Shown: piece by piece, positions 3,793 through 20,607 of the stretch
Layout: each line of letters begins with the position of its first letter
Position numbering within the stretch: position 1 is the stretch's first letter
Assembly: GCA_018266355.1 (NCBI GenBank)
Contig: JAFEAP010000023.1
Coordinates: 151,758 to 183,757 of the forward strand
Length of the DNA stretch: 32,000 nt
Direction: 5' to 3'
Origin: Bdellovibrionales bacterium
GTDB taxonomy: Bacteria; Bdellovibrionota; UBA1018
Notes under the pieces: model-generated
The model's database searches: none
What the model was told of the DNA's origin: nothing
Seen by the model: only the letters and a program-made list of their open reading frames with translations
Program-made: the position numbers and the translations under genes

Positions 3793-6162
3793 TTATCGTA
3801 CGATCGTGATCGTTTTCGTAGAAATATCTCCTTCTAGATCTTGAAGAGTGACGCTGAAACGATCAGTCATCATGTTGTTTGAAGTTGGCTGGTAGGTCAA
3901 AGTGCCATCGTGATTTTGAACAACTAGCCCGTACTGTCCTTGTGTAAAGGTTTTAATTGAGACGACGGTATTTGATTTTTTTCGACAAAAATCGGGCACG
4001 GGATCAATAGTCACAGATTTTCGCCGCCAGTGAACTGCTTGGTCTGGAATGGTTTTGAGAAGATCCAAGTCAACAACGCGAAGCAGCTCTGCCTTTGTGA
4101 TTTCAAGTTCGTTTGTTTTCTCAGTCGAATCTTTCAACAATCTGGTGATCGTGGCTCGAAGATTAAACAACTCCAAGACAGCTAATATCTTTTGCTTTTC
4201 GTCGGAGCTATTTGGTCGACGTCTCATGCACGCCCGGCCTTTAAGAGTGGCTTCAATTAACTTCGCCTCTATGAGGAGAATATCGCGGCCTACCCGGGGT
4301 TTTGCTTTATAACTAGTTTCAGCAACGGCTTTAATGGCATCGATAAGTAGCTTAGAGGATGGATTGAAAGTCTCAAGAACTTGATTATTTCTGACTACCT
4401 GAACGTTATTTGGAATATCCATTATAGGGATTTGGACTAAAAAGAAGCTCTTCGAAACAGGCCGGATGTCGCCGTTATCCGTAATGAGACCGAAGCTTGG
4501 CGCGAAACTAGCCTGACCCACAACTTCACCCTCAGAATCGACCAGTTGAATCTTTCCCTCGGCGCTGGCTTCATACGGAGTGGTAGTTCCAGCAGGAAGA
4601 AAATAGGCAGAAAGTAGTTGAACTGTGTTGGTTTCCGAGACGAATCCGGAAATTACCATCACCATTGGATCAGATGGGGAAATTAAAAGCCTTTGAAACA
4701 GCGAAGAATACTCACTTGAGGAGATCCATCTGCCAGTGAGATTTTCTCGGAACCTAAGGCTTCCTTGCCCCATGAGATCAGCCGCATCCAAGATGGGCTG
4801 ATTTTGGTCGACCCAAAACGAGTTTACAGTTGCCGCGTTGTACGCGTGGCCTATGCCAAATAGGTGTGCTACCTCATGTGCCGTTGCCGACCAAAAATTA
4901 GTTCGAACAAGGGCAGAATGAGGTTGGAAGAGTGATTGGCCCGGGATCGGGGCGGGCGCCATCCCCGCTGCGTCGAGTGCATGATCGTCGAAATATTGGT
5001 CGGAAACCAATCCAATCGCGACATTGGCGTTTGTGGAATTTCTCTGGCTCATTACAGCTCGAAGTTCCAGTTGTCCTAGATCTTCTTCGATGGCGTCGTT
5101 TCCAAGAAGGTTGTCCGAGTCTAATTTAGTCGATGCCGCGACTGAAGATCCTACTGAACTGAAGACGCTTCCTTTCGCAACTGGATACATTCCTTCGAGT
5201 AATGGCGTAGCCATCGCCACATGAGTTTGAACATCGTTTAAATCCGGACCATTTCCTGTTCCCACGATGGGAAAATAGCTTAGATCGATTGAGGAAGTTC
5301 TTTTTACTCGGATTGTCTTTTCGATCGATGCATCGCTAATGCCCTCGCTAAAGGTCTTGATTGACAACCTAGTTGCCGTGATGTCGGCCACTGACACCGG
5401 GGAAAAGGTGACGTATTTCCCCGAATAATCTTGAGCCGAACTTAGGGTTAGTGATCGAAGTGTCGACGTGGTTTCACCGAGGGAGAGACTAACGTTTATG
5501 TTGATGGGCCGCGCGATGGCGGGTCCGTTTATGAGCGACACCTTCGCGGTGATTGCTGCCGCTTTGTCTAGAACTAAATCGTAGTCGGCGGTACTGCCAG
5601 GCAGCTTCGCGTTTGGGACTGCTTGAGTCACCGTAACGTCGGAAATTGTTATTTCCGGATCGGAGCTCGGGGTCGGAGATGGAGTAGGGCTAGGGATAGG
5701 CGAAGGTTGCGGGCCAGGACCTTGAACGAAAATGCTTCTAAAATTTAACCAGATGTCTTTAGCGGAGTTGGTCGGAAGGAGACCATTAGTGCAGGAGAGC
5801 CGATTTGCGAATCCGGTGATGTGATTCGTCCCCGGCACGAGATTCAGTGGAGTTACTTCGCTATTCGCGGATTGAAGAACGCAATACAAATTTCCAATTT
5901 CCGTAAGGTCGAGCGTGATGTCTATGTACGTGTCGACGAGCTCGCCATTTAGTGGCGACATTTCGAAATATGTACTCGCGAAACTTTGGCCGCCCGGCCA
6001 ATAGGGATTGGCGACGGAGGATAAGAAAATCAGGGCGCCATCAAAGAAATAAGGCGCGTCTACCGAATCTATCAGGAGGCTGTAAGTGGTGGGTGGATTC
6101 GACGGAACGGTCGCGAAATAGCGTCTCCGGAAAATGCCCTGGCTGGTCGTGACCGCTGACAT
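3793..6162 (-). CDS. Large multidomain zinc metalloprotease (metzincin motif HEVAHLFGIGH) with a Pro/Ser/Thr linker and a C-terminal cadherin/Big_9-like domain; possibly a pseudogene (see leader ORF)
   Basis: 789 aa. Carries an HExxHxxGxxH motif (TAHEVAHLFGIGHAY), a PSPIPSPTPSPTPS linker, and a C-terminal GLVVQNHDGTLTYQPTSNNMMTDRFSVTLQDLEGDISTKTITI typical of Ig/cadherin-like repeats. The annotated Met has no signal peptide. Confidence 0.75.
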   Translation of the reverse strand: MSAVTTSQGIFRRRYFATVPSNPPTTYSLLIDSVDAPYFFDGALIFLSSVANPYWPGGQSFASTYFEMSPLNGELVDTYIDITLDLTEIGNLYCVLQSANSEVTPLNLVPGTNHITGFANRLSCTNGLLPTNSAKDIWLNFRSIFVQGPGPQPSPIPSPTPSPTPSSDPEITISDVTVTQAVPNAKLPGSTADYDLVLDKAAAITAKVSLINGPAIARPININVSLSLGETTSTLRSLTLSSAQDYSGKYVTFSPVSVADITATRLSIKTFSEGISDASIEKTIRVKRTSSIDLSYFPIVGTGNGPDLNDVQTHVAMATPLLEGMYPVAKGSVFSSVGSSVAASTKLDSDNLLGNDAIEEDLGQLELRAVMSQRNSTNANVAIGLVSDQYFDDHALDAAGMAPAPIPGQSLFQPHSALVRTNFWSATAHEVAHLFGIGHAYNAATVNSFWVDQNQPILDAADLMGQGSLRFRENLTGRWISSSEYSSLFQRLLISPSDPMVMVISGFVSETNTVQLLSAYFLPAGTTTPYEASAEGKIQLVDSEGEVVGQASFAPSFGLITDNGDIRPVSKSFFLVQIPIMDIPNNVQVVRNNQVLETFNPSSKLLIDAIKAVAETSYKAKPRVGRDILLIEAKLIEATLKGRACMRRRPNSSDEKQKILAVLELFNLRATITRLLKDSTEKTNELEITKAELLRVVDLDLLKTIPDQAVHWRRKSVTIDPVPDFCRKKSNTVVSIKTFTQGQYGLVVQNHDGTLTYQPTSNNMMTDRFSVTLQDLEGDISTKTITIVR

Positions 6163-6180
6163 TCCACTAAACTGTGAGTA

Positions 6181-6294
6181 TTAAAATATCCATTGGGACG
6201 AAAGAATTTCGTAGCCTTCCGCTTCGGCGGTCGCGGTGAAAGTGAAAAGACTTGCGAGACCAAGAAGTGCGAAAAGGAAGGAGCGATTCAGCAT
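6181..6294 (-). pseudogene. 37-codon ORF encoding a textbook Sec signal peptide, in the same frame as the metzincin ORF and separated from it by a single TAA
   Basis: Hand translation gives MLNRSFLFALLGLASLFTFTATAEAEGYEILSSQWIF, then TAA at 6183..6181, then YSQFSG followed by the Met at 6162. Positions 6294 and 6162 are both divisible by 3, so the frame is identical. Confidence 0.6.
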
Positions 6295-11387: not shown

Positions 11388-12560
11388 CTAGTTCGGAAGC
11401 TTCGTGACGAGATCCGCGCGGACCCAAGCCGTGCGATCGGAAGAACCGATGCGCGGGCTTTCGATCTTCATCCATCCGTCCTTCTCTTCGACGAGATTCG
11501 CGACGGCGGAGCGGTCGAGCGTCTGGACGGCGGTTCCCTGCATTCCGGGCGAGGCGCGGAGCACGGCGCGCGGCACGCGGACGATCACCGTCGTCCGGAC
11601 GTTCTCGGCGCGGACGGCGGAGTTCGCCTTCGACCGGATCGAATCGGCTTCGGTCGGGGCGGACGGAGCGGAGGGCGCGATCACCGGCGAAAGCGCTTGT
11701 TTGCCCTCGTGATAGAGGTAGATGCCCGAACCGATCGCGAGGACGATCGCGACCCAAAGCGCGATCATCGGACGCAGGCTCGCGCGGTATTCGGAGACGG
11801 CCTTCTCGGAAGCGAGCGTCGACTCGATGATCGGGTCGACGGACGAGCTCGTGTCGATCACTTCGACGGCTTCCGGCGGCGGGTTCATCACGGTCACGTC
11901 GACTTCCATGTCGTCGATCGCTCCTTCGGCCGAGATCGCGTTCACGGTCGGGATTTCGTCGATCGCGTCGTCGTCGAGCTCGGACGGGAACGCGCGCTCG
12001 ATCAGGTCGATCGGGGTGACCGTCGGCTTCAGCAGGAACGCGGGCGGCTTCGCGTAGGCGAAGACCGGGGGCGCGGCGGCGACGTCGTCTTCGATCGCGT
12101 TCGCGTCGGCGATCGCGATGGATTCGAAAGAGGGCACGAACGGCGGCGGAGCGCTCGGGCGGGTCACGATCGCATCCATCGCCATGTTCATCGTCATCAT
12201 CGCCGCGTTCGGCGGCGGCGGCGTCGCGGATCGGGCGGACGGAGACGGCGCGGGCGCGATCGCGTCGATCTTCGCCGCGATCTTCGTCGCGTTCGAGAGT
12301 TTGTCAGTCAGATCGCGGATCTGCGATTCCATCGATTGGATCTTCGTCGTCGCGTTCGCGGTCTGGGTGAGCCGGAGTTCGACTTCGAGCTGGGCTTCTT
12401 CCTCGAGGCGGCGCGCCTTCACATAATCGGCGAGAACCGCGCTCCGATGGACGAGCGCCATACCTTTGCACTTCGCGCAGCGGACGTAGGCCTTCTTCGT
12501 GTTCTCGAAGTCGATGCCGGCGGTGACCAGTTCTTCGCAGTGAGGGCAGTTCCAACGCAT
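11388..12560 (-). CDS. MJ0042-type zinc-ribbon protein with coiled coil, one TM helix and a C-terminal SH3-like domain
   Basis: Start taken as ATG 12560 (MRWNCPHCEELV...VRCAKCKG), with GGAG about 8 nt upstream. Coiled coil EEEAQLEVELRL...IRDLTDKL. TM helix MIALWVAIVLAIGSGIYLY. C-terminal tail is SH3b-like (...EEKDGWMKIE...AWVRADLV). Confidence 0.7.
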   Translation of the reverse strand: MRWNCPHCEELVTAGIDFENTKKAYVRCAKCKGMALVHRSAVLADYVKARRLEEEAQLEVELRLTQTANATTKIQSMESQIRDLTDKLSNATKIAAKIDAIAPAPSPSARSATPPPPNAAMMTMNMAMDAIVTRPSAPPPFVPSFESIAIADANAIEDDVAAAPPVFAYAKPPAFLLKPTVTPIDLIERAFPSELDDDAIDEIPTVNAISAEGAIDDMEVDVTVMNPPPEAVEVIDTSSSVDPIIESTLASEKAVSEYRASLRPMIALWVAIVLAIGSGIYLYHEGKQALSPVIAPSAPSAPTEADSIRSKANSAVRAENVRTTVIVRVPRAVLRASPGMQGTAVQTLDRSAVANLVEEKDGWMKIESPRIGSSDRTAWVRADLVTKLPN

Positions 12561-12783
12561 GGTTCTTCTCCAGTTCCTATCTTCTAGGATCGAAGAAGGA
12601 GGGGATCGGAACAATCGGTAGAATCTGCCTCTATATAATGAGGACGACGGGGCAATTTCTGCCGAGCGGGAGTCCGCGTTTTCTCCGTACTGGACTCCGG
12701 TGAGGTCGAATATAACGCGATAAGTCAAATCTCTGACCCCGAACCCCCGATGGGGCTCGTTTACCGCTTATCCCGGAGTTTTT

Positions 12784-13107
12784 ATGAAAATCGCGTTCGT
12801 CCTCGCCGCCCTCGTCGTTTCGTCCGTCCCGAACTTCGCTTTCGCCGCCACCGAAGTCGTGTGCGAAGCGGCCACGATCGTCACGAACCCGGGCGGAGAC
12901 GGCTCGACCCAAACCCAGGGCGACGATGACGGCGAAAAGATCAACAAGCGGATCGCCGAGCTCCAAGCCCAAGGCAAGAAGGTCCAAATCAAGGCCCTCA
13001 CGTCCTCCGCGGCCGCGCTTTCGCCAGCGGCGGCGCTGAACCAAAGCCGTCAAATCGTGACGAAGGGATTCATGTACTCGAAGAACTGCGCGGCGCTCGA
13101 ATACTGA
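12784..13107 (+). CDS. Small secreted protein, unknown function
   Basis: 107 aa. Clear Sec leader MKIAFVLAALVVSSVPNFAFA/A. Two Cys in the mature part. No recognisable domain. Confidence 0.6.
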   Translation: MKIAFVLAALVVSSVPNFAFAATEVVCEAATIVTNPGGDGSTQTQGDDDGEKINKRIAELQAQGKKVQIKALTSSAAALSPAAALNQSRQIVTKGFMYSKNCAALEY

Positions 13108-13122
13108 GCGCGCGTAGATGGC

Positions 13123-13914
13123 TTACGTGCCCGTAGGAGATTCGACCGACGGCGGTAACGCCGTGGCCGACGGGCCCGCGGGCCCGGCCGTTTCGTCGAA
13201 GATCCGAATGACGACGCGGCGATTGCGATCGTTCGCGGTCGTCTCGTCGACGGCGGCCGGATCGCGTGCGGGCTCGACTTCCGGCCGCGTGTCCGCATAA
13301 CCGATCGCCACCAGGCGCTTCGGATCGAAACCGTGGTCGATGAACGCGCGCACGACGCGCGCGGCGCGGGCGCTCGAGAGTTCCCAGTTCGAAGGATACG
13401 GACCGGAGAGGATCTTCCGCGAGTCGGTGTGCCCTTCGACGGCGACCTTGAACTGCTTGTGTTCGGCGGTTTGGATACGGGAAATCTCGGCGAAGAACGG
13501 TTCGAGGGTCTTCGCGCCTTCGGGCGAAATCTCCGACGAGAGCGTGTCGAAGAAGGTCGTCGATTGGAAGACGAGCGAGACGCCGTCGGCGCCGAAGCGC
13601 ACGGCGGCTTCCTTCTCGAGGCCGTTTTTCTCGATCACTTGGTGGAGGAAACGCGCGTACTCGGCGTTCGCCGACTTGAAATCGCCGCCGAACTGCTTCG
13701 CGACCGACTCGCGCACCTTCTCGTACTTCGTCGCATCGAGCTTCGCGAACGAGAAGAGCATGATGAAGAAGCCGCAGAGGAGCGTCATGATGTCCGCGTA
13801 GGACATCAGCCAGTTCGACTCGTCGTGGCCGGCGGCGTGGAGATACGGATCGATCTCCGGGTGCCGGCTCTGCTCGACGACTTCGGGTTGCTTCTTTCTA
13901 TCCAGCCAGCCCAT
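13123..13914 (-). CDS. motB: Flagellar-type stator protein MotB (OmpA-like peptidoglycan-binding C-terminus)
   Basis: 263 aa. NWLMSYADIMTLLCGFFIMLF carries the conserved channel Asp. The C-terminus VEGHTDSRKI...SNWELSSARAARVVRAF...GYADTRP is an OmpA/MotB PG-binding motif. Confidence 0.9.
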   Translation of the reverse strand: MGWLDRKKQPEVVEQSRHPEIDPYLHAAGHDESNWLMSYADIMTLLCGFFIMLFSFAKLDATKYEKVRESVAKQFGGDFKSANAEYARFLHQVIEKNGLEKEAAVRFGADGVSLVFQSTTFFDTLSSEISPEGAKTLEPFFAEISRIQTAEHKQFKVAVEGHTDSRKILSGPYPSNWELSSARAARVVRAFIDHGFDPKRLVAIGYADTRPEVEPARDPAAVDETTANDRNRRVVIRIFDETAGPAGPSATALPPSVESPTGT

Positions 13915-13921
13915 ATCGGAT

Positions 13922-14704
13922 TTACGCCGCCTTCTTCAGGACGCGTTCGCCCGGGAGGAGGAACGAGTTCAGCCCTTCGCGCATCGCGACCGGGTTCACT
14001 TGGGACTTCAGCATGACCGCGCCTTCCATCATGATCCGGCGGAGGTTCATCTCCTCGCGCGTGCGCTCGGTCAGGTTCTCCGCGATCGGGAGGAAGACGA
14101 GGTTCGCGAGCGCGATCCCGTAAAGGGTGCCGATGAGGCCGACGGACATCGCCGGGCCGATCAGCGACTGGGAATTCGGTTGGCCGATCTTCTGGAGGAC
14201 GCCGATCATCCCGAGCGTCGTCGCGAGGAGGCCGAACGCCGGCGGGAAACGCCCGATCGTGCGGAACATGTTCGCCTCGAGCAGGTAACGGCCCTCGATC
14301 GTCTTGATCCGCTGTTCGAGCGTCGAACGGATCTCCTTGTCGGTGAGGACGCCGCCGGCGACGAGCGTGACGGCTTCCTTCAGGAACGGGTGCGAGATCG
14401 CGTTCGCGGCTTCCTTCAGCGTCGGCAGGCCCATCGCGGCCTTGCGATTCAATTCGAGGAGCTGCGAGATCGCGCCCTGGTAGTCGACGGCGTTCCGGCC
14501 GAGCACCCGGTTCACGAAGACTTTCGTGAGGGCGAAAATCTTGGAAAGCGGGAAACTGATCGACGTCGCGGCGAACGTCCCGCCGATGACGATCAGGATG
14601 CCGTGAAAATCGAGGAAGAACCCGAGATTGTCCGTCGTGGCGGTCATCGCGCCGTACATCACGCCGAGTCCGACGAGGAGCCCGAAGAGGGAAGAGGGAT
14701 TCAT
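13922..14704 (-). CDS. motA: Flagellar-type stator protein MotA/PomA (MotA/TolQ/ExbB channel family)
   Basis: Start taken as ATG 14704 (MNPSSLFGLLVGLGV...), forming an ATGA overlap with the upstream gene's stop. Four TM helices. Conserved prolines occur in PPAFGLLATTLGMIG and LVFLPIAENL. A charged cytoplasmic loop lies between TM2 and TM3. Confidence 0.9.
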   Translation of the reverse strand: MNPSSLFGLLVGLGVMYGAMTATTDNLGFFLDFHGILIVIGGTFAATSISFPLSKIFALTKVFVNRVLGRNAVDYQGAISQLLELNRKAAMGLPTLKEAANAISHPFLKEAVTLVAGGVLTDKEIRSTLEQRIKTIEGRYLLEANMFRTIGRFPPAFGLLATTLGMIGVLQKIGQPNSQSLIGPAMSVGLIGTLYGIALANLVFLPIAENLTERTREEMNLRRIMMEGAVMLKSQVNPVAMREGLNSFLLPGERVLKKAA

Positions 14705-15201
14705 GCGGCCTTCTTTCCGTCGCCCTTCAAGGCGACCTTCCAAAGCTGGTACTGGGTATCGACGTAGTTATCGTCGAGGCTGCGCAGGCGCTTCGCGAGC
14801 TCCTGGGTGCAGCGGCGGTAGAACTCGCACTTAGCGGTTTCGTTCTGGGCGAGGAAGCGCTGGAACACTTCCGCGGGAAGATGGAACGCCTTCACGGCGG
14901 TCAGCGCCTGGACGGTGGCCGAACGGGGAGCATCGTCGACGAGGGACATCTCGCCGAACGAATGGCCCGCCCGAAGCTGGGCGATCTCGACGAGGTCGCC
15001 CGAGGCGCGGTTCGTCTTGAAGATTCCGACCTGGCCTTCCATGACGAAGAAGAGCCCGCCCGAAGGCTCCCCTTCGATCACCATGAGGGTGAGCGCGTCG
15101 TAGGTGAGGATCTCGCCGCTCTTCAGGAACGTCTCGAGGTCCGCGTCCGAAAACGCGGCGAGGAGCTTCACTTCGCGGAGGTGGGCTGCGGTCATGTTCA
15201 T
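14701..15201 (-). CDS. Stand-alone cyclic-nucleotide-binding (CAP_ED) protein without a DNA-binding domain
   Basis: 166 aa. Beta-roll with an intact phosphate-binding cassette (FGEMSLVDDAPRSATVQA) and a C-terminal helical tail with no HTH. ATGA overlaps occur at both ends (15198-15201 and 14701-14704). Confidence 0.85.
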   Translation of the reverse strand: MNMTAAHLREVKLLAAFSDADLETFLKSGEILTYDALTLMVIEGEPSGGLFFVMEGQVGIFKTNRASGDLVEIAQLRAGHSFGEMSLVDDAPRSATVQALTAVKAFHLPAEVFQRFLAQNETAKCEFYRRCTQELAKRLRSLDDNYVDTQYQLWKVALKGDGKKAA

Positions 15202-17570
15202 GAGGCCTTCCGGATCGAAGCGACGTTATTCGAGGCGTAAGCCGCGAAGAGGCGGTCGTTCACGTCGGCGAGGTTCACGAGCGTGTCCTGGGCCATCATC
15301 TTCACGCGGTTCAGCACCTTGCGTTCGAGCGCACCGTAGATGTCGCGGCTCGGGTTCTGCATGACCGCGAGTTCCTCCTCGAGGTCGCTCACGAGGTCGC
15401 GCGGACACTTCGCGAAGACGGAACCGCGGATGTCGTCGCGGCAACCCTTCAGGAAGTTCAGCAGCTCGTCGTGGCGCAGGCTCAGGATCACCTCGAGCAG
15501 CTGGCCGTCCGGGAGGAAGGCGAGCGTGTCGACGGATACGAGCTTGTGCTTAACGACCCGGGCGCTCTCCGGGTTGTTCATCTCGAGGTTGCGGACGACC
15601 GATTGCTGCACGGTCGGTTCGCTGCGCTCGAGCAGGTTCACGAGCACCTCGCTGCCCGGCAGGGCTTCGGTGTTCAGCCGCGGGTTTTCCATCCGCTTCC
15701 GCTTGAGGGCGTTCGCGACGTTCTGGATGTAGTCGCGCGGGAGGTAGTCGATCCGCGAAAGCTCGGCGAGGAGTTTCAAGCGGGTCGCCTCGTCGATCGC
15801 GCCGAAGATCGCCGCCCGCTTCTGGTTATCGCACTGGGTGAGCACGATCGCCTTCACGGTGAGGGACTCGTTCCGCACGAGTTCCATGATCTGCATGCCG
15901 TCCATCTCCGCGAGGTAGTCGAACTGGGCGGAGGAGCGGGAAGCGACGACGGCCATCTTGCCGGCGACCGTCCGATGATGGAGCTTCTTCAGGAGTTCGA
16001 GTTTCTCGGCGTCGTCGAGTTCGATCGGCGTGCGCGCGTAGAATTCCATCAGCTCGTTCAAGTCGTGCTGGAGCGAGGGATCGCGAAGGAGATCGAGGAC
16101 TACGCTTTCGCCGAAGATCGAGAGGTAAGCCGACGTCGTCTCGATGCCTTCCTCGGTGAGGATCCGGCCGAAGACGTATTTAGCCACGCGCGGTTGCTCG
16201 GCGAAAATGCCCATGAGTTCGTCGCGGAGGCGATCGATCTCATAGCGGCGCCCGATCGAGGATCCGCCGTTCGACGGCGGGGCTCCTTCGGGCGGGGCGA
16301 GGTTCGCGAGCGTCGCCTCGCCGCCGGAAGCCGGCAGCGCCGGCATCGGAGCGGCGGCCATCGGCATGTTCTTCGTCTCGATCGTCGTCTTCGATCGAAG
16401 CGTCGAGAAGGCGATGAAGCCGAGGAGGCCGAGGATGATCGCGGCGAAAATCGAGGCGTAGGTGCGCATCGTCTTGAATTCGGTGGTGAGCGCGTCTCCG
16501 TTTTCGATGCGTTCGATCTTCTCGAAGTGCTGGAAGTTCTCGGTTCGCTGGTCCTTCGTCACGTTCGATTCGCGGTCGGTGCGGTTCGTCGAGTCCGAGC
16601 TCGTCGTCCGGTTGTTCGCTTCGGAGGTCGACGCCGTGCGGTTATCCGTGGTGTTGTGGTTCTGTTGGTTGTAGTTTTCCGTGCGTTTCGATTCGAGGGA
16701 TTCCTTCGAATCCCGGCTCTGGGTCTTCGCGTAGGTCTTTCCGTCGGCGCCGACGTAAGTCGGCATACCGGCGAACTCGGATCCTTCGTTCGCGATGCGC
16801 GGAAATTTCATCGCCTTTGCGCGGAGGTCGGAATTCTTGAAGTCGCCGACTTTCAGCTGGGCCATCTCGAGGATGTTCGCACGGTCGCCGTCCGGAATCG
16901 CCTCCTCCATGAGGAGGGTCGCGCCGATCGATTTCACCCGCACGGCGACGCCGGCGGTCTCGAAGTACTCGCCCGCGGTGCCGTAGCCGGCTTCCTCGGC
17001 GTTCACGAGTTCGGTCTGGAGCTCGTAGTCGGAAAGCATGCAGTCCTTCGGGCAAACCTTCGCGATGACTTCCTCGATCGCCCCCTTGTACTGCTTCGTG
17101 ATCCGGTCGCGGAGTTCGGTGACTTTCGCCGCGCTTTCGGCGGGCGACGGGAAGCGCGCGGTTTTCGTCGCGACTTTCACCGGGTAGTCGAGGGTCTCGA
17201 GGTAGCGGTTCACGAGGTCGAGGACCCGCGTGCGGGTGTTCGGGCCGATTTTCTCGTCGATGAGGACTTTCACTTCGGCCGAGGCCGGTTCGAGCTCGCC
17301 GCGCGCGCCGGCGTCGACTTCGTCGAATCCCGGGGCGATCGTGTCGGCGGAGGCGACGTCGACGTCGACGTCGATCGAGAGGAGTTTGCACTCGTCGGAG
17401 CAGTACTTCATGAAAACGGGATCGACGATCGCGTGGATCGCGGTGCGCGCGGTCTTCTTCACTGATTCGATCGCGGCGGTCGTGCCGGAATCCTTGGCGT
17501 GGGCCGGGGCGGCAAAGACCGCCGCCGAGGCGAGGAGGGATAAATAGAGGATCGACGACTTCGTTTTCAT
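15198..17570 (-). CDS. Membrane-anchored FliG-like protein: Sec leader, two exported Cys-pair modules, low-complexity linker, one TM helix, cytoplasmic FliG-like N/M/C domains
   Basis: 790 aa. Leader MKTKSSILYLSLLASAAVFAAPAHA/K. TM helix at residues 369-391 (YASIFAAIILGLLGFIAFSTL). The C-terminal ~330 aa align by eye to the FliG middle and C-terminal domains, including an LKG...R....EE torque-helix pattern. Confidence 0.85.
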   Translation of the reverse strand: MKTKSSILYLSLLASAAVFAAPAHAKDSGTTAAIESVKKTARTAIHAIVDPVFMKYCSDECKLLSIDVDVDVASADTIAPGFDEVDAGARGELEPASAEVKVLIDEKIGPNTRTRVLDLVNRYLETLDYPVKVATKTARFPSPAESAAKVTELRDRITKQYKGAIEEVIAKVCPKDCMLSDYELQTELVNAEEAGYGTAGEYFETAGVAVRVKSIGATLLMEEAIPDGDRANILEMAQLKVGDFKNSDLRAKAMKFPRIANEGSEFAGMPTYVGADGKTYAKTQSRDSKESLESKRTENYNQQNHNTTDNRTASTSEANNRTTSSDSTNRTDRESNVTKDQRTENFQHFEKIERIENGDALTTEFKTMRTYASIFAAIILGLLGFIAFSTLRSKTTIETKNMPMAAAPMPALPASGGEATLANLAPPEGAPPSNGGSSIGRRYEIDRLRDELMGIFAEQPRVAKYVFGRILTEEGIETTSAYLSIFGESVVLDLLRDPSLQHDLNELMEFYARTPIELDDAEKLELLKKLHHRTVAGKMAVVASRSSAQFDYLAEMDGMQIMELVRNESLTVKAIVLTQCDNQKRAAIFGAIDEATRLKLLAELSRIDYLPRDYIQNVANALKRKRMENPRLNTEALPGSEVLVNLLERSEPTVQQSVVRNLEMNNPESARVVKHKLVSVDTLAFLPDGQLLEVILSLRHDELLNFLKGCRDDIRGSVFAKCPRDLVSDLEEELAVMQNPSRDIYGALERKVLNRVKMMAQDTLVNLADVNDRLFAAYASNNVASIRKAS

Positions 17571-18334
17571 TATTTCCCCTCGCTTTCGGAGGCGAGACCC
17601 CGGGTCGCGCGTTTGCGATCGAGGTATTTCTTCAGGGCCAAGTTCTGCGGATTCAGCCGGAGCGACTGCTGCCAGGACCGGACGGCGAGCTCGTAGCGGC
17701 CGAGGCGGTCGAGAAGCGTGCCGCGCATCTCATAGAGTTTAGGGGCGGTCGGGAAGTCGACGAGGAGGTCCTCGACCTCGAGGAGCGAGGCTTCGTAACG
17801 GCCTTCACGGTAGAGACGTTTGATGCGGTCGAGACCGGCGAGGTAGCTCTTATCCGCGTGCGGCGTCGAATCGGCGGAAGGCATCACGCCGAGGGTCTGT
17901 TCGATGTCGTTCCGTTCGCCCTCGAACTCGCCGCCGTTTTTCGGGAACGATTCGGTGATTTCGCGGTCGGCGATGACCGGCTTCTTGTTCCGGTAGGGAT
18001 CGTCGAGGTCGGCCGTGGTTTCGTCCGCGCCGGCCGCACGGGTCGGCAGCGAGACTTCGTCGAGCTTCGTCGACTGGTCGGGGAAGGTGACTTCGAAACT
18101 GCGGTCGCCCTTACGCGTGCGGAAAACGGTTCCGGTCTCGGCGGTCGCGGCCGCGCCGCCGCCGGCTTGGTACCCTTCGAAAGGATTCGTGATCGGACCG
18201 TCGGATTTTTTCTCGTTCGTGGCGAAGACCGTGCTCATCGTGGAACAAGCGGGGACGGCGGCGAGCACGACGAGCGTCGTCGTGAAGGCTCGGGTCATCT
18301 CGGCTAGGTTTTTCTCGGGTTTGCGGTTCGCCAT
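17570..18334 (-). CDS. TPR-repeat lipoprotein
   Basis: 254 aa. Leader with a lipobox-like LAAVPAC. C-terminal TPR-like repeats (YREGRYEASLLEVEDLL, LYEMRGTLLDRLGRYELAVRSWQQSLRLNP). The stop shares one nucleotide with the next gene's ATG (TAATG at 17570). Confidence 0.75.
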   Translation of the reverse strand: MANRKPEKNLAEMTRAFTTTLVVLAAVPACSTMSTVFATNEKKSDGPITNPFEGYQAGGGAAATAETGTVFRTRKGDRSFEVTFPDQSTKLDEVSLPTRAAGADETTADLDDPYRNKKPVIADREITESFPKNGGEFEGERNDIEQTLGVMPSADSTPHADKSYLAGLDRIKRLYREGRYEASLLEVEDLLVDFPTAPKLYEMRGTLLDRLGRYELAVRSWQQSLRLNPQNLALKKYLDRKRATRGLASESEGK

Positions 18335-18353
18335 AAAATCCCTTTAAATCCTT

Positions 18354-19475
18354 TTAAAACAGGGCACTGATGCCCAATCCATATTCGATCCCGGAAACGC
18401 TTTTCTCGGTCCCGGTGATGAGCGTCGTCGCCTTCGGCCGGTAACCGAGCGTCGTGCTCACGGCCCAGTGCTTCGCGAGCCGCCATTCGTAGCCCGCGCG
18501 GAAGACTCCGCCGAGGTAGCCCGACGCGTACGTGCCGCCGACCCCGGTGACGATCGTACCGCGCACCTGGTTGTAGTTCTCTTCCGCGCCGATCAGGTTC
18601 CACGCGTGGACGAAGAGCATCGTCATGTTGAAGGAACCGTAGATGCGGGCGCCGGTATCCGTCGTGGTCGACTCGACCGGCGATCCGGAGAGCGTACGGA
18701 CGTCGGTGATGTAGTCGAGTTCGAACCCGACTTCCTTTTTCCGGTTGTCGTAGCGTTCGACGAGGCGGAAACCGAGGCTCAGGCAACTCGAGCGCTCCCC
18801 CGCGTCCGGTTCGTTCAGGTAAGAGATCGTCCCGCGGTATTGGAGCGTCGGGATGTATTCGTTTTGTTTCACGGAAGCTTCCATCTGGGAGAAATCGACG
18901 CCTCGACGGTACGCGGAAGCGCGGGAGGTCTCCGAATTGTAACTGCGCGACCAGACGACGCTTCCCGTAGCGGCGTCGGCCGTCGTCATCGAGAGCACCA
19001 TTCCGGTGGGTTGGAACGAGAACGCGAGATCCATGAAGTTTTCGATGCCCTGGGCCTTCGCGATGCGCGCGAGTTCGTTCGGATTCAACTCCGCGGAAGT
19101 CACGAGGATCTGGTCTTGGTTCAGCGTCGCCTTGCGTGCGCGGCACGGAAGACACTGCACGACGCGCGTCTTCGTCGTGGCGAGGATCTTTTCGGTGACG
19201 ACGAGTTCGAGGTGGTTCCGGAACGACGGCGGGATGTTCTCGCTCATCGCGATGTTCCGGATCGCGAGATCCTTCAATCCGCTCACGCTTCCGTTTTTCA
19301 GGTCGTATTCGAAATCGGAGAGGAGGTCGCCGAGGACATCGTAGAAATTCCGCGTCTCGGTTTGGGAAGCCGCGTGCGCGCGCGCCGGCATCGCCGACGT
19401 GAGTACAGCGAGGGTGGTAGCGAGTGCAGTGATGAAGCGGCGATTCTGAAGATTCATAGAGGGTCTTTCGGACAC
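18354..19475 (-). CDS. Probable outer-membrane beta-barrel protein with an N-terminal periplasmic alpha/beta domain
   Basis: 373 aa. Sec leader ...LAVLTSAMPARAHA/A. The C-terminal half has alternating-polarity strands and ends in GLGISALF (terminal aromatic, OMP-like). GTG start at 19475 with GAGGA upstream. An ATG at 19457 is an alternative start. Confidence 0.7.
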   Translation of the reverse strand: MSERPSMNLQNRRFITALATTLAVLTSAMPARAHAASQTETRNFYDVLGDLLSDFEYDLKNGSVSGLKDLAIRNIAMSENIPPSFRNHLELVVTEKILATTKTRVVQCLPCRARKATLNQDQILVTSAELNPNELARIAKAQGIENFMDLAFSFQPTGMVLSMTTADAATGSVVWSRSYNSETSRASAYRRGVDFSQMEASVKQNEYIPTLQYRGTISYLNEPDAGERSSCLSLGFRLVERYDNRKKEVGFELDYITDVRTLSGSPVESTTTDTGARIYGSFNMTMLFVHAWNLIGAEENYNQVRGTIVTGVGGTYASGYLGGVFRAGYEWRLAKHWAVSTTLGYRPKATTLITGTEKSVSGIEYGLGISALF

Positions 19476-19602
19476 TCCTTCCTCACTCCCGTTTCGGGTC
19501 GGGACGAAAACTTCTTTAAGTTTTCGGGGCTTAGGCAGAGATTTCCGGGTTCGGCGACGAGAGTGATGAAAACATGACTCAGGAAATCAGTCGGGTATTC
19601 CG

Positions 19603-20607
19603 ATGAGGACGGGTGAAGGACTCCGGAATCGCATGGGAAACCGTCTTCTCCGCCCGACATCGACGAAATTCGTCAGCGCCAGCTTCCTGGCGGCGCTCGT
19701 CGGCGGCCTTTCCTCGTGCGCGGTCCTCCAACCGAACGTGATCGAACCGACGGCCGACGCGCCCGCGCCGCCCGCCGCCGTGGAGGCGCCCGGTTACGCC
19801 GGCGTTCCGCATCCGCTCGGACTCCAAATCGGCGACGTCGCCGCGCTCTTCGCGACGCCCGGTGCGCCGAAGCGCGGAAGCGACGAGATGAAGACCTGCG
19901 CGGCCGACTACGATGCGCTCGCGAAGGCCACTAAGGCCAAGGACGAACTCAAACAAGGACTCCTCGAACTCGTCCGTAAGGAGCCGATCCGTTATCACTG
20001 GTGCTTTTACTCGAAGATCCTCGACCTCGAGGAGAAACTCCGCGGGGCCCAGATGCTCGACGATCGCCAGCGTGCGGTCGTCGAAGCGTATCGATTCCTC
20101 GCGCCGCTTTCGCGCGTTTTCTACCGCGAATTCCACGACTCCCGGTACCTGCGGTGGGCGGTCTCGTACTACCGCCGCGCGAGCGAACTCGCGTTCTATC
20201 GGCGGGTCGAGACTTCGCCGGGATTGACCCAGGAACTCGTCGGCGCGGGCGGCGACGAGACCACGCGAGGAATCACCGAGAAGGCGACGAGCGTGCTCGA
20301 AAAGTACGGGATCATCGTCCCGGAACGCCTCCAGCCCGGGCAGAGTCCCGACGAGATTCCGAAGGGTGACGCCCTTCCGAGCGACGCTTACGTGAATACC
20401 GGTTCAGGCGTGCTCGATAGCACGGCGACCGGCAGCGAAGCCAAGCCCGGCGCAGGAGCTGAAGATCCGACGGCGTCCACCGCCGCCTCTAATCCTCCTG
20501 CGGCAGCTCCGGACTCCGTCGTTCCGGACGCTCCCGCCGAAACGTCGCGCGCGCCCGCGGCTGAGAGTTCGTTTCCGGCGCTGACGAACCCGCTGCAAGG
20601 CGAATAG
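19603..20607 (+). CDS. Lipoprotein of unknown function with a Pro/Ala/Ser-rich C-terminal tail
   Basis: 334 aa. Lipobox LVGGLSSC. No recognisable domain. An alternative ATG at 19633 has a better Shine-Dalgarno (GAAGGA). Confidence 0.65.
   Translation: MRTGEGLRNRMGNRLLRPTSTKFVSASFLAALVGGLSSCAVLQPNVIEPTADAPAPPAAVEAPGYAGVPHPLGLQIGDVAALFATPGAPKRGSDEMKTCAADYDALAKATKAKDELKQGLLELVRKEPIRYHWCFYSKILDLEEKLRGAQMLDDRQRAVVEAYRFLAPLSRVFYREFHDSRYLRWAVSYYRRASELAFYRRVETSPGLTQELVGAGGDETTRGITEKATSVLEKYGIIVPERLQPGQSPDEIPKGDALPSDAYVNTGSGVLDSTATGSEAKPGAGAEDPTASTAASNPPAAAPDSVVPDAPAETSRAPAAESSFPALTNPLQGE

What the first reader, a model, noticed from the sequence alone, without database searches (positions are those of the whole stretch)
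13123..19475. Six-gene coupled operon joining an OM barrel, a TPR lipoprotein, a membrane-anchored FliF/FliG-like protein, a cNMP sensor and a MotA/MotB stator: candidate flagellum-independent stator-driven trans-envelope machine
All six ORFs are on the minus strand, and their junctions indicate co-translation. The junctions are a 19-nt gap (18354/18334), a one-base TAATG overlap at 17570, an ATGA overlap at 15198-15201, an ATGA overlap at 14701-14704, and a 7-nt gap (13922/13914). The predicted locations cover every envelope layer. These are an outer-membrane barrel, a periplasmic lipoprotein with TPR repeats, an inner-membrane protein with exported modules and a cytoplasmic FliG-like domain, a cytoplasmic cNMP-binding protein, an ion-channel stator and a peptidoglycan anchor. 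No fliF, fliM/N, flg, flh or fli export genes flank the cluster. The only other flagellar gene in the window is fliC, 11.5 kb away on the other strand behind an unrelated operon. The non-flagellar 5:2 motors I know of (ExbBD, TolQR, AglRQS, GldLM, ZorAB) couple to TonB, TolA, Glt proteins, GldM or the ZorA tail, not to a FliG-type interface. A dedicated FliG-like partner, OM/periplasmic components and a second-messenger sensor encoded with their own MotAB is therefore an architecture I cannot assign to any described system.
Basis: partly seen in the sequence, partly recalled or inferred. Interest (0 to 1): 0.85.

Follow-up and report, generated by a model that had tools for sequence, protein, structure and literature searches.

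The report
Flagellum-less FliG–MotAB envelope motor cassette
An uncultured predatory-type bacterium carries a conserved gene cluster that pairs a flagellar-type ion-driven stator with its own membrane-anchored rotor-like protein and two outer-membrane partners, but has no other flagellar parts, so it may be a previously undescribed rotary machine of the cell envelope.

Summary
Six tightly coupled minus-strand genes (13123-19475) encode the following:
- an outer-membrane 8-stranded barrel with a TolB-N/LpoB-like periplasmic domain;
- a TPR lipoprotein;
- a 790-aa exported, single-TM protein. Its periplasmic half has two ring-building-motif-like modules, with fold hits to FliF. Its cytoplasmic half is FliG-like, with all torque-helix charges but no EHPQ FliM-binding motif;
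- a cNMP-binding protein;
- a PomAB/MotAB-type stator.

The five non-cNMP genes are colinear in 61 of 62 informative loci. These loci come from about 80 species of uncultured Bdellovibrionota. The same five genes recur in a different order around ~600-aa one-module variants in metagenomes.

A cassette-bearing relative, MAG FG-1, also has a canonical flgB-fliE-fliF-fliG-fliH operon and at least 5 MotA genes. The cassette is therefore not an odd basal-body locus. I found no paper, Pfam/NCBIfam family or defence model that describes it.

Best reading (about 0.55): a self-contained FliG/MotAB rotor-stator motor with no export apparatus or axial parts. It would be coupled to the outer membrane and modulated by cNMP in most lineages. 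The rivals are a flagellar-motor accessory and a Ton/Tol-like non-rotary energiser. The function and its independence from the flagellum are inferred, not shown.

The parts
18354..19475 (-). O1: outer-membrane protein of 373 aa from the GTG start, or 367 aa from the ATG at 19457 as annotated by NCBI (JST04_11140). It has a Sec signal peptide, a periplasmic alpha/beta domain with a conserved CxxC, and a C-terminal 8-stranded beta-barrel ending in Phe.
   Evidence: The AF2 model has pLDDT 78.5 and 8 strands over residues 205-366. Foldseek matches OmpW, NspA, OmpX, OmpA and Ail barrels at E 4e-6 to 1e-4 with TMt 0.55-0.58. The N-domain matches the TolB N-domain (E 1e-6) and the LpoB C-domain (TMt 0.63-0.65). 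There is no Pfam or NCBIfam family. The search returned 335 relatives; the 120 listed carry no Pfam domain and, where named, are 'hypothetical'. The C-terminal F and C108/C111 are invariant.
17570..18334 (-). O2: 254-aa lipoprotein with a lipobox-like AVPAC|S. A conserved PIxNPF motif and a long low-complexity region are followed by a C-terminal TPR domain (aa ~165-240).
   Evidence: Pfam finds TPR_2 at E 4e-6 and other TPR models over aa 168-235. Nearly all of the 69 orthologues have a hydrophobic segment plus [GAS]-C; 45 of 69 match a strict lipobox pattern. O2 is present in 75 of 80 loci and in the distant variant.
15198..17570 (-). O3: 790-aa rotor-like fusion protein. Its parts, in order, are a signal peptide, two RBM-like modules, a disordered Ser/Asn/Thr-rich linker, a conserved juxtamembrane helix with one TM, a disordered cytoplasmic linker and a FliG-like domain.
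   Evidence: Supported by the AF2 model (pLDDT 71), Pfam FliG_M and FliG_C, Foldseek hits to FliG and FliF and the family alignment A1.
16809..17486 (-). O3 aa 29-254: two periplasmic alpha-beta-beta-alpha-beta (ring-building-motif-like) modules, each with an invariant CX3C pair (C57/C61 and C173/C177).
   Evidence: The DSSP elements of the model are H29-56 E61-71 E94-105 H110-124 E131-138, then H144-172 E177-189 E208-222 H227-243 E247-254. Foldseek matches FliF MS-ring chains 8zds_B (5.5e-4), 8t8p (1.3e-3), 7bk0 (1.8e-3) and 6scn (2.2e-3). There is no sequence-level match to FliF: no Pfam hit and hhalign E 0.21.
16398..16544 (-). O3 aa 343-391: a periplasmic juxtamembrane helix (EKIERVENGDA, the most conserved stretch of the protein) running into the single transmembrane helix.
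   Evidence: E350, I352, E353, R354, E356, G358, D359 and A360 are invariant. The model shows helix 340-391. The peptide IERVE[NS]GDA was specific enough to serve as a genome-scan pattern.
15234..16268 (-). O3 aa 435-779: cytoplasmic all-helical FliG-like domain. The torque-helix charges K708, R724, E732/E733 and R742 are conserved. The EHPQ motif is replaced by ESLT.
   Evidence: phmmer against the PDB matches T. maritima FliG-MC at E 1.9e-9, with an alignment. The alignment to E. coli FliG shows K264, R281, D288/D289 and R297 matched. TIGR00207 gives 47.7 bits against a cut-off of 226.7. Identity to the canonical FliG of FG-1 is 16%.
14701..15201 (-). O4: 166-aa cytoplasmic single-domain cNMP-binding protein with no DNA-binding domain. 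It is translationally coupled on both sides. It is accessory, being absent in 12 related loci.
   Evidence: Pfam cNMP_binding, E 8e-18. The phosphate-binding cassette FGEMSL..D..PRSATV is at least 95% conserved. O4 is absent in L040, L043, L048, L050, L051, L053, L054, L058, L060, L061, L068 and L079.
13922..14704 (-). O5: 260-aa MotA/PomA-type stator A subunit. It is the most conserved gene of the cassette.
   Evidence: Pfam MotA_ExbB, E 4.8e-20. The best solved relatives are C. sporogenes MotA (4e-34) and V. alginolyticus PomA (4e-31). NCBIfam MotP/PomA/MotA hits reach 1e-41 to 1e-35 but fall below the equivalog cut-offs. K/R87-K/R88, E/D98, P155 and P206 are conserved in 67-70 of 70 sequences. 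Median identity is 69%.
13123..13914 (-). O6: 263-aa MotB-type stator B subunit, with a TM carrying the conserved Asp (SYADIMTLL), a plug and an OmpA-like peptidoglycan-binding domain.
   Evidence: Pfam MotB_plug 9.7e-15 and OmpA 4.7e-14. PDB hits are C. sporogenes MotB (1e-23), MotS and PomB. Conservation of the TM, plug and OmpA core is shown.
19603..20607 (+). Possible associate: a divergently transcribed 334-aa lipoprotein (lipobox LSSC) of unknown family.
   Evidence: A homologue lies about 240 nt upstream of O1 on the opposite strand in 55-58 of 80 loci. It has no Pfam hit. It was not found in the distant variant loci.
11388..12560 (-). Possible associate: a downstream same-strand protein with an N-terminal zinc ribbon (CPHC...CAKC), one TM and a C-terminal bacterial SH3 domain.
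   Evidence: A homologue lies about 140 nt downstream of O6 on the same strand in 47 loci. Pfam SH3_3 scores E 4.7e-5, below the cut-off. It was not found in the distant variant loci.

Best explanation
The cluster most likely encodes a self-contained, flagellum-independent rotor-stator motor that spans the cell envelope.

Shown or directly predicted:
- O5/O6 form a flagellar-type (PomAB/MotAB-class) ion-driven stator. It is anchored to peptidoglycan through the OmpA-like domain of O6.
- O3 is exported by a signal peptide and held in the inner membrane by one helix.
- On the cytoplasmic side O3 presents a FliG-like domain. This domain keeps every charged residue of the FliG torque helix that meets MotA.
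- The O3 FliG-like domain has lost the EHPQ surface that binds FliM.
- On the periplasmic side O3 presents two ring-building-motif-like modules.

Inferred mechanism:
- O3 oligomerises into a ring, acting as a natural FliF-FliG fusion.
- The stators turn this ring in one direction using ion flow.
- With no export gate, rod, hook or switch proteins, the torque does not go to a filament. It goes to the periplasmic ring, which hangs on an ~80-residue flexible linker.
- From there the torque passes through the TPR lipoprotein O2 and the periplasmic TolB-N/LpoB-like domain of the outer-membrane anchor O1 to the outer membrane.
- The result is mechanical work on, or movement of, outer-membrane or surface components.
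- In most lineages the small cNMP-binding protein O4 is made in fixed proportion with rotor and stator. It gates or brakes the motor in response to cAMP or cGMP, by analogy with YcgR-type brakes.

The physiological output is unknown.
For: Stator:
- Pfam and PDB matches identify a MotA/MotB-type stator.
- The conserved basic pair K/R87-K/R88, the acidic E/D98 and the prolines P155 and P206 are kept in 67-70 of 70 orthologues.
- The plug, the channel Asp and the OmpA core are conserved.

Rotor-like O3:
- Pfam finds FliG_M and FliG_C.
- The T. maritima and E. coli FliG alignments show K264, R281, D288/D289 and R297 equivalents conserved.
- The model shows two alpha-beta-beta-alpha-beta modules plus a TM plus a helical domain.
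- Foldseek hits both FliG (3e-6) and FliF MS-ring chains (5e-4 to 2e-3).
- Engineered FliF-FliG fusions do form rings (PMC10941966, PMC11481574, listed).

Dedicated pairing of rotor and stator:
- All 61 loci with the five core genes are colinear, with median gaps of -7 to +8 nt.
- A distant ~600-aa one-module variant keeps the same five components in another order, O1-O2-MotA-MotB-O3like, in 6 metagenome loci.

Not the flagellar locus:
- FG-1, which carries the cassette, also has a canonical fliF-fliG operon. Its FliG has NEHPQT.
- FG-1 has at least 5 MotA genes.
- O3 is only 16% identical to the FG-1 FliG.
- No fli, flg or flh motor genes occur in the window or in the 8-kb flanks of 80 loci.

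Outer-membrane coupling:
- O1 is an 8-stranded anchor barrel with a TolB-N/LpoB-like interaction domain.
- O2 is a lipoprotein with TPR repeats.

cNMP control:
- The phosphate-binding cassette of O4 is conserved.
- ATGA overlaps couple O4 translationally to O3 and O5.
Against: - No experiment, no structure of a complex and no multimer prediction supports ring formation or an O3-O5 contact.
- The FliF likeness is fold-level only, with low TM-scores. There is no Pfam YscJ_FliF hit and hhalign gives E 0.21.
- The periplasmic modules are joined to the membrane helix by a long disordered linker, which is a poor torque shaft.
- The hosts are flagellated. fliC is in the window, FG cells have a polar flagellum, and flagellin genes lie within 8 kb in 22 of 80 loci. 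A physical link to the flagellar motor is therefore not excluded.
- The copy-number census was possible for one relative only, from a KO table. Which FG-1 MotAB pairs belong to the cassette is inferred.
- One locus (L014) has O3 without motAB next to it.
Confidence: 0.55

Rival explanations
1. Flagellar-motor accessory. The cassette supplies an extra stator set plus periplasmic and outer-membrane scaffold proteins for the high-torque, sheathed polar flagellum of these bacteria. O1 and O2 would play roles like FlgO/FlgP/PflA/PflB. O3 would form an additional ring around the MS/C ring that recruits, parks or is co-driven by stators.
For: - The hosts are flagellated, and FG cells have an unusually thick polar flagellum.
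- fliC is in the window, and flagellin genes lie near the cassette in 22 of 80 loci.
- O5/O6 are of the flagellar (plug + OmpA, PomA/MotP-like) stator class, not the Exb/Tol class (framework of PMC12505986).
- TPR proteins and outer-membrane or lipoprotein rings are known stator scaffolds in Campylobacterota and Vibrio (titles; otherwise my own knowledge).
Against: - O1 and O2 match no known flagellar accessory family.
- A scaffold has no obvious need for a complete, conserved FliG torque helix.
- Rotor-like and stator genes are co-inherited even when the gene order is rearranged.
- No cultured Bdellovibrio or Bacteriovorax, which also have sheathed fast flagella, appears among the listed homologues.
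- The flanking genes are housekeeping genes, not flagellar operons.
Confidence: 0.2
2. Non-rotary Ton/Tol-like energiser. O3 does not form a continuously rotating ring. Its FliG-like domain serves only as the adaptor that docks onto the rotating MotA pentamer. Ion flow would then pull or twist individual O3 molecules. Force would pass through the flexible periplasmic part to O2/O1, to remodel, tether or energise a process at the outer membrane, as TolA/TonB do for TolQR/ExbBD.
For: - O3 has a single TM plus a long disordered periplasmic linker reminiscent of TolA/TonB.
- The O1 periplasmic domain has the TolB-N/LpoB fold, and its barrel is an OmpA/OmpW-type anchor rather than a channel.
- The stator is peptidoglycan-anchored.
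- No bushing or axle proteins are present.
Against: - The stator is not of the TolQ/ExbB class. TolQ scores only E 0.009, against 1e-41 for MotP/PomA.
- The periplasmic modules have the ring-building-motif topology and hit FliF ring chains.
- FliG-type torque helices are so far known only in ring rotors (my own knowledge).
Confidence: 0.17
3. Degenerate leftover of a duplicated flagellar locus with no current function.
For: The FliG-like and MotAB genes are paralogous to flagellar genes. O3 lacks the FliM-binding motif.
Against: - All six ORFs are intact and translationally coupled.
- Orthologues are full length in about 80 species, with invariant functional residues. O5 has 69% median identity.
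- The non-flagellar partners O1 and O2 are conserved, including in a rearranged distant variant.
Confidence: 0.02

Closest known systems
Bacterial flagellar motor core (FliF MS ring + FliG + MotAB/PomAB stator)
   Same: The stator is of the flagellar class: a four-TM A subunit with a large cytoplasmic loop carrying conserved charges, and a B subunit with plug, channel Asp and OmpA-like domain. The rotor-like protein has FliG middle and C-terminal domains with the five charged torque-helix residues. Its periplasmic modules have the ring-building-motif topology of FliF.
   Different: - Rotor and membrane ring are one polypeptide of 790 aa.
- There are only two RBM-like modules, with no RBM3 or beta-collar.
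- There is no sequence match to FliF.
- The EHPQ FliM-binding motif is lost.
- The cluster has no FliM/FliN, export gate, rod, hook, or L or P ring genes.
- The partners are an OmpA/OmpW-type barrel with a TolB-N-like domain, a TPR lipoprotein and a cNMP-binding protein.
Engineered FliF-FliG fusion proteins of Salmonella and Vibrio (PMC10941966, PMC11481574; PDB 8z4d/8z4g)
   Same: A single chain joins an MS-ring protein to FliG. Such fusions assemble into rings, which shows that a covalent FliF-FliG rotor is physically viable. PDB 8z4d was a sequence hit of O3.
   Different: Those are laboratory constructs of full-length FliF and FliG that work inside a complete flagellum. O3 is a natural, much shorter, deeply diverged protein in a non-flagellar operon.
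Tol-Pal and Ton systems (TolQRA-TolB-Pal, ExbBD-TonB)
   Same: An inner-membrane 5:2 ion motor is linked through a periplasm-spanning protein to outer-membrane partners. The O1 N-domain has the TolB N-domain fold. O6 has a Pal/OmpA-type peptidoglycan-binding domain.
   Different: The stator class is MotAB/PomAB, not TolQR/ExbBD. The coupling protein has a FliG-type interface instead of a TolA/TonB transmembrane helix bound inside the stator. No TolB beta-propeller or TonB-dependent receptor is present.
YcgR/PilZ-type second-messenger brakes and the EpsE clutch of flagellar motors
   Same: A small cytoplasmic nucleotide-sensing or regulatory protein is encoded with, and presumed to act on, the FliG-MotA interface.
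   Different: O4 has a CAP-type cNMP-binding domain (FGE...RSAT cassette), not a PilZ domain. Its action on the motor is purely inferred, and it is missing in one subclade.
Other non-flagellar 5:2 motors (AglRQS-Glt gliding machinery, GldLM of the type 9 secretion system, ZorAB)
   Same: An ion-driven stator-like motor is re-used for a non-swimming, envelope-spanning task.
   Different: All of these use Exb/Tol-like or specialised A/B subunits and partners other than FliG. PADLOC finds no ZorA, ZorC or ZorD. No Glt or Gld homologues are in the cluster.

Membership tests
Flagellar-class stator MotAB/PomAB ('FIT' class of PMC12505986) | A subunit with a MotA_ExbB domain whose closest relatives are flagellar MotA/PomA/MotP | tested here: met
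   Pfam E 4.8e-20. PDB: C. sporogenes MotA 4e-34 and PomA 4e-31. NCBIfam: MotP 3e-41 and PomA 5e-39, against TolQ 0.009.
Flagellar-class stator MotAB/PomAB ('FIT' class of PMC12505986) | Conserved charged residues in the cytoplasmic loop (E. coli R90/E98 equivalents) and the two conserved prolines (P173/P222 equivalents) | tested here: met
   K/R87-K/R88 in 69-70 of 70 sequences, E/D98 in 67 of 70, and P155 and P206 in 70 of 70. The C. sporogenes alignment shows the same RK...E pattern.
Flagellar-class stator MotAB/PomAB ('FIT' class of PMC12505986) | B subunit with plug, channel Asp in the TM and an OmpA-like peptidoglycan-binding domain | tested here: met
   MotB_plug 9.7e-15 and OmpA 4.7e-14. 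SYADIMTLL is conserved.
Flagellar-class stator MotAB/PomAB ('FIT' class of PMC12505986) | Orthology to a named flagellar stator (NCBIfam equivalog cut-off) | tested here: not met
   The best O5 score is 141 bits against a cut-off of 394. The best O6 score is 133 bits against 264.
Flagellar-class stator MotAB/PomAB ('FIT' class of PMC12505986) | Drives a flagellar basal body | not testable with these tools
   This needs genetics or cryo-ET. The genomic context argues against it.
FliG (flagellar rotor/switch protein) | FliG middle and C-terminal domains | tested here: met
   FliG_M 1.2e-9 and FliG_C 3.6e-11, both above the Pfam cut-offs. Foldseek matches FliG at E 3e-6.
FliG (flagellar rotor/switch protein) | Charged torque-helix residues (E. 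coli K264, R281, D288, D289, R297) | tested here: met
   The aligned residues are K708, R724, E732, E733 and R742. E733 and R742 are nearly invariant in the family.
FliG (flagellar rotor/switch protein) | EHPQR motif that binds FliM | tested here: not met
   O3 has N-E-S-L-T where T. maritima and FG-1 FliG have (S/N)-E-H-P-Q-T. Only the Glu and the distal Arg (R606) are kept.
FliG (flagellar rotor/switch protein) | Soluble ~330-aa protein with a FliG_N domain that binds the FliF C-terminus, encoded next to fliF/fliH | tested here: not met
   O3 is 790 aa with a signal peptide and a TM. There is no Pfam FliG_N hit. TIGR00207 gives 47.7 bits against 226.7. The neighbours are non-flagellar.
FliF / SctJ (YscJ_FliF) ring proteins | Sequence membership (Pfam YscJ_FliF) | tested here: not met
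   There is no hit at E <= 0.1. hhalign against E. coli FliF gives E 0.21.
FliF / SctJ (YscJ_FliF) ring proteins | Periplasmic ring-building motifs (alpha-beta-beta-alpha-beta) | tested here: inconclusive
FliF / SctJ (YscJ_FliF) ring proteins | RBM3/beta-collar that houses a type III export gate | tested here: not met
   Only two short modules precede the linker. There are no export-gate genes in the window or in related loci.
Tol-Pal / Ton energy-transducing systems | TolQR/ExbBD-class stator with a TolA/TonB partner | tested here: not met
   TolQ scores E 0.009 only. No TolA/TonB-like gene is present. Only the O1 N-domain resembles the TolB N-domain in fold.
Zorya anti-phage system | ZorA with a long tail plus ZorC/ZorD or other effector genes | tested here: not met
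   PADLOC gives no ZorA, ZorC or ZorD hit. The ZorB models hit O6 only through general MotB homology.
CAP/CRP-type cNMP-binding proteins | Cyclic-nucleotide-binding beta-barrel with phosphate-binding cassette (GE...R[ST]A) | tested here: met
   Pfam E 8e-18. FGEMSL..D..PRSATV is at least 95% conserved.
CAP/CRP-type cNMP-binding proteins | C-terminal helix-turn-helix (transcription factor) | tested here: not met
   The protein ends about 45 residues after the binding domain. The CRP models match only positions 11-132.

The most novel reading that the evidence does not exclude
This would be the first natural example of the FliG-MotA torque interface working outside a flagellum. It would be a minimal, free-standing rotary motor made of a one-polypeptide FliF/FliG-like rotor and its own PomAB-like stator. 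It would transmit ion-driven rotation across the periplasm to an outer-membrane anchor complex. It is widespread in uncultured Bdellovibrionota, with shorter one-module relatives elsewhere. It could be either a stripped-down derivative of the flagellar motor or a surviving cousin of the pre-flagellar rotor.
Probability: 0.5. Interest if true: 0.92.

Novelty: new variant of a known kind. Interest (0 to 1): 0.8.

Why it matters
FliG-type rotors are regarded as unique to flagella. A recent survey of MotAB evolution (PMC12505986) treats plug-bearing, OmpA-anchored stators as flagellum-specific.

A conserved operon that pairs such a stator with its own membrane-anchored FliG-like protein and outer-membrane partners, with no export apparatus or axial structure, would matter in three ways:
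- It would show that the flagellar torque-generating module can be redeployed, or once existed, as a stand-alone machine.
- It would give evolutionary biologists a minimal rotor-stator pair to compare with the flagellar motor.
- It would give structural biologists a two-component system (O3 ring plus O5/O6) that may be far easier to reconstitute than a flagellar basal body.

It also defines three protein families with no annotation: O1, O2 and the O3 N-terminal half. These are conserved across a phylum of mostly predatory bacteria.

If the cassette turns out to be a flagellar accessory instead, it would still be a new kind of motor ring for high-torque sheathed flagella.

Tried and rejected
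- **Defence system (Zorya-like).** PADLOC gave only generic MotB and cNMP-domain hits. Rejected.
- **FliF membership by sequence.** There is no Pfam YscJ_FliF hit and hhalign against E. coli FliF gives E 0.21. Only fold-level similarity remains.
- **Link to the three characterised motAB pairs of B. bacteriovorus.** No named cultured Bdellovibrio or Bacteriovorax protein appeared among 120 + 120 listed homologues or among 80 genome loci. The literature search gave no neighbourhood information. No link was found, but absence is not proven.
- **Promoter and terminator scan of 12400-19800.** It found 0 promoter-like sites and 10 terminator-like sites, against 8.4 +/- 3.3 in shuffles. Uninformative.
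- **Walking along the contig from fliC.** This gave only a second flagellin and unrelated genes.
- **Structure prediction of O1 with locus-derived orthologues.** I redid it with database proteins.
- **First metagenome scan with a 10-sequence alignment.** It failed for lack of a conserved stretch. A 4-sequence alignment worked.
- **Taxonomy of the ~600-aa variant hosts.** It could not be established. Cluster look-ups gave only 'Deltaproteobacteria bacterium TL4' for one relative and Silvanigrellales for a 968-aa variant.
- **Direct census of fliG and motAB in the window's own MAG.** I substituted the published KO table of relative FG-1.

Full report
**1. Observation.**

The six minus-strand ORFs are present at the coordinates given:
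- O1: 18354-19475.
- O2: 17570-18334.
- O3: 15198-17570.
- O4: 14701-15201.
- O5: 13922-14704. I use the ATG at 14704, which overlaps the O4 stop, not the upstream TTG.
- O6: 13123-13914.

Reading the junctions directly confirms all five:
- a 19-nt O1/O2 gap;
- TAATG at O2/O3;
- ATGA at O3/O4;
- ATGA at O4/O5;
- a 7-nt O5/O6 gap.

O3 is the NCBI protein 'MAG: hypothetical protein JST04_11130 [Bdellovibrionales bacterium]' on a 313-kb contig. O1 is JST04_11140.

**2. What each gene is.**

*Pfam results.*
- O2: TPR (E 4e-6).
- O3: FliG_M (1.2e-9) and FliG_C (3.6e-11).
- O4: cNMP_binding (8e-18).
- O5: MotA_ExbB (4.8e-20).
- O6: MotB_plug (9.7e-15) and OmpA (4.7e-14).
- O1: no family.

*NCBIfam.* O5 and O6 sit nearest flagellar MotP/PomA/MotA and MotS/MotD/MotB, with E down to 1e-41. 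All scores are far below the equivalog cut-offs. TolQ scores only E 0.009.

*The stator, O5/O6.*
- The closest solved structures of O5 are C. sporogenes MotA (4e-34) and V. alginolyticus PomA (4e-31). For O6 they are the matching MotB, MotS and PomB.
- Across 70 family members, the basic pair K/R87-K/R88, the acidic E/D98 and the two channel prolines P155 and P206 are conserved.
- The O6 TM motif SYADIMTLL, the plug and the OmpA core are conserved.
- In the vocabulary of PMC12505986, this is a flagellar-class stator, not an Exb/Tol-class one.

*The rotor-like protein, O3.* The AlphaFold2 model of O3 was built on a 20-sequence family alignment and has pLDDT 71. It shows, in order:
- a signal peptide;
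- two alpha-beta-beta-alpha-beta modules (aa 29-138 and 144-254), each with an invariant CX3C pair;
- an ~80-residue disordered Ser/Asn/Thr-rich linker;
- a long helix (340-391). Its periplasmic start, EKIERVENGDA, is the most conserved stretch of the protein, and its end is the single TM;
- a disordered cytoplasmic linker;
- an all-helical domain (435-779).

Foldseek against the PDB returns FliG first (E 3e-6 to 6e-6, with 310-324 aligned columns for full-length FliG). FliF MS-ring chains follow: 8zds_B at 5.5e-4, 8t8p at 1.3e-3, 7bk0 at 1.8e-3 and 6scn at 2.2e-3.

At sequence level, the alignments to T. maritima and E. coli FliG match five residue pairs:

| E. coli FliG | O3 |
|---|---|
| K264 | K708 |
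| R281 | R724 |
| D288 | E732 |
| D289 | E733 |
| R297 | R742 |

These are the residues known to face the stator. The FliM-binding EHPQ motif, in contrast, reads ESLT.

No sequence-level similarity to FliF exists: there is no Pfam hit, and hhalign gives E 0.21. 'FliF-like' therefore stands only as a predicted ring-building-motif fold.

*The outer-membrane protein, O1.*
- The model was built on a 30-sequence alignment and has pLDDT 78.5. It is an N-terminal alpha/beta domain plus an 8-stranded barrel ending in an invariant Phe.
- Foldseek matches the barrel to OmpW, NspA, OmpX, OmpA and Ail.
- It matches the N-domain to the TolB N-terminal domain and the LpoB C-terminal domain.
- O1 is therefore an outer-membrane anchor that presents a protein-interaction domain to the periplasm. 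It is not a secretion pore.

*The other two proteins.*
- O2 orthologues almost all carry a lipoprotein signature and a PIxNPF motif.
- O4 keeps the phosphate-binding cassette FGEMSL..D..PRSATV at 95% conservation or more. It has no DNA-binding domain.

**3. Conservation.**

*Genome scan.* A scan with the O3 family alignment found 91 loci, of which 80 were kept. All come from uncultured Bdellovibrionota/Oligoflexia-labelled MAGs, including the magnetotactic MAGs FG-1 and FG-2. PMC13200544 places those two in GTDB class UBA1018, sister to the Bacteriovoracia.

*Synteny.* I ran tblastn of the six window proteins against these loci.
- All five core genes (O1, O2, O3, O5, O6) occur in 61 loci, always colinear and on one strand.
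- Eighteen of the other 19 loci are cut by a contig end.
- One locus, L014, has O3 followed directly by the downstream gene, without motAB.
- O4 is missing in 12 loci, where O5 follows O3 directly.
- Median intergenic gaps are -7 to +8 nt.
- O5 is the most conserved gene (median 69% identity) and O2 the least (40%).

*Further recurrent neighbours.* There are two:
- a divergent upstream lipoprotein (window 19603-20607), in 55-58 loci;
- a downstream zinc-ribbon/TM/SH3 protein (window 11388-12560), in 47 loci.

The remaining flanks hold housekeeping genes and, in 22 loci, flagellin genes. They never hold fli, flg or flh motor genes.

*Wider family.* An exhaustive profile search of 1.84 billion representatives found 1271 relatives at E < 1e-3 and 104 at E < 1e-30. 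They include:
- further full-length clusters;
- 910-990-aa variants, one of them from Silvanigrellales;
- ~600-aa proteins with one N-terminal CPGRC module, a proline-rich linker, a TM and a FliG-like C-terminus.

*The distant variant.* A metagenome scan for the ~600-aa group gave nine loci.
- In the six that are long enough, the neighbours are O1-like, TPR, MotA (Pfam 2.6e-22) and MotB (plug 3.7e-15 and OmpA 9e-14).
- The order there is O1-O2-MotA-MotB-O3like.
- The same five components kept together through a rearrangement is the strongest genomic argument that they work together.

**4. Is it just the flagellar locus?**

I could not scan the window's own genome. The published KO table of cassette-bearing FG-1 (supplement of PMC13200544) gives the following:
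- A canonical operon: flgB-flgC-fliE-fliF (499 bits)-fliG (310 bits)-fliH-fliI-fliJ-fliK-flgD-flgE-fliL.
- An extra weak FliG hit (115 bits), which I interpret as an O3 fragment.
- MotA hits at five or more positions, two with an adjacent MotB.
- One pair, 02691/02692, follows an RsbU-type gene rather than a cNMP or FliG-like gene. By inference it is not the cassette pair.

The FG-1 canonical FliG has NEHPQT and is only 16% identical to O3 over the aligned region.

The window itself has fliC, with a second flagellin just beyond it. The hosts are therefore flagellated, and the cassette is an additional FliG/MotAB set.

**5. Mechanism.**

*Shown or directly predicted:*
- a peptidoglycan-anchored, ion-conducting flagellar-class stator;
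- a membrane protein whose cytoplasmic domain keeps the stator-facing FliG surface but not the FliM-facing one;
- periplasmic RBM-like modules;
- an outer-membrane anchor and a TPR lipoprotein;
- a cNMP-binding protein made in translational coupling with rotor and stator.

*Inferred:*
- O3 forms a ring, as engineered FliF-FliG fusions do (PMC10941966, PMC11481574).
- The stators turn that ring in one direction.
- The periplasmic ring engages O2 and O1, so that work is delivered to the outer membrane.
- O4 gates the motor.

I put 0.55 on this reading. I put 0.2 on a flagellar-accessory reading, because the hosts are flagellated, flagellin genes lie nearby and the stator is of the flagellar class. 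I put 0.17 on a Ton/Tol-like non-rotary reading, because of the long flexible linker, the TolB-N-like partner and the anchor barrel. I put 0.02 on a non-functional remnant.

**6. Comparison and novelty.**

The cassette is not a member of FliG, FliF or any named stator equivalog by their own cut-offs or defining motifs (see the membership table). It works most like the flagellar rotor-stator pair.

Seven literature searches, NCBIfam and PADLOC turned up no description of it. Database names for O3 are 'hypothetical', 'FliG C-terminal domain-containing protein' or an automatic 'FliG'.

I rate it a new variant of a known kind: a flagellar-type rotor-stator module in a new, non-flagellar architecture. 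There is an even chance that it is a categorically new stand-alone rotary machine.

**7. Limits.**
- Everything rests on sequence, predicted structure and gene neighbourhood.
- The FliF likeness is weak.
- The copy-number census covers one relative only.
- The taxonomy of the ~600-aa variant hosts is unknown.

Noticed in passing
window 3000-6200: A low-GC island (47-50% against ~63% elsewhere). It holds a GH46 chitosanase-like gene (2363-3235, -) and a 789-aa protein with Big_9/cadherin-like repeats (3793-6162, -). It may be horizontally acquired.
   Followed up: no
window 30999-31832 (+); L081 7797-9876: fliC is followed just beyond the window by a second tandem flagellin gene. An identical FliC is encoded on a different assembly (GCA_039810405.1). 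Flagellin genes lie within 8 kb upstream of the cassette in 22 of 80 related loci.
   Followed up: partly
L067 and L069 (MAG FG-1): FG-1 carries two cassette copies. Both are cut by a contig end at about O3 residue 602. Their O3 parts are 86% identical in DNA, while the only aligned stretch in the O1 region is ~64%. This suggests either a real duplication or two co-binned strains that broke the assembly.
   Followed up: partly
L014 325-2875: This is the one related locus in which O3 is followed directly by the zinc-ribbon gene. It has no O4, O5 or O6, although 3 kb of contig follow. It could be a natural deletion or a misassembly.
   Followed up: no
window 19603-20607 (+) and 11388-12560 (-): Two unannotated neighbours are conserved with the cassette. 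One is a divergent lipoprotein with no known domain (55-58 loci). The other is a downstream zinc-ribbon/TM/SH3 protein (47 loci). Neither was detected next to the distant ~600-aa variant.
   Followed up: partly
window 16511-16543 (O3 aa 349-360); O3 C57/C61, C173/C177; O1 C108/C111: The most conserved stretch of O3 is not in the FliG part. It is the periplasmic juxtamembrane peptide EKIERVENGDA. Each RBM-like module has an invariant CX3C pair, and O1 has an invariant CxxC in a low-confidence loop. These are candidate disulfides or an interaction site.
   Followed up: no
L082-L088 (e.g. L083 738-9472): In the distant variant, the rearranged cluster O1-O2-MotA-MotB-O3like is flanked by further tightly packed genes with no Pfam hit. 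These are 400 aa upstream, and 380 aa and 207 aa downstream. They may be lineage-specific components.
   Followed up: no
window 18362-18375 (-): A terminator-like hairpin followed by TGTTTT lies at the very 3' end of O1, before the 19-nt gap to O2. It could set a different expression level for O1. However, terminator-like hits in the region are no more frequent than in shuffles.
   Followed up: no
window 12784-13107 (+): A small ORF of 107 aa with a signal-peptide-like start sits on the opposite strand between O6 and the zinc-ribbon gene. It has no tblastn match in any of the 80 related loci, where the zinc-ribbon gene usually follows O6 within about 140 nt.
   Followed up: no
window 26454-29465 (-); L081 1297-6263: A cluster of two DUF4178 proteins, a Band_7/SHOCT protein, DUF350 and a spermine-synthase-domain membrane protein lies between the cassette region and fliC. 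It appears unrelated to the finding.
   Followed up: no
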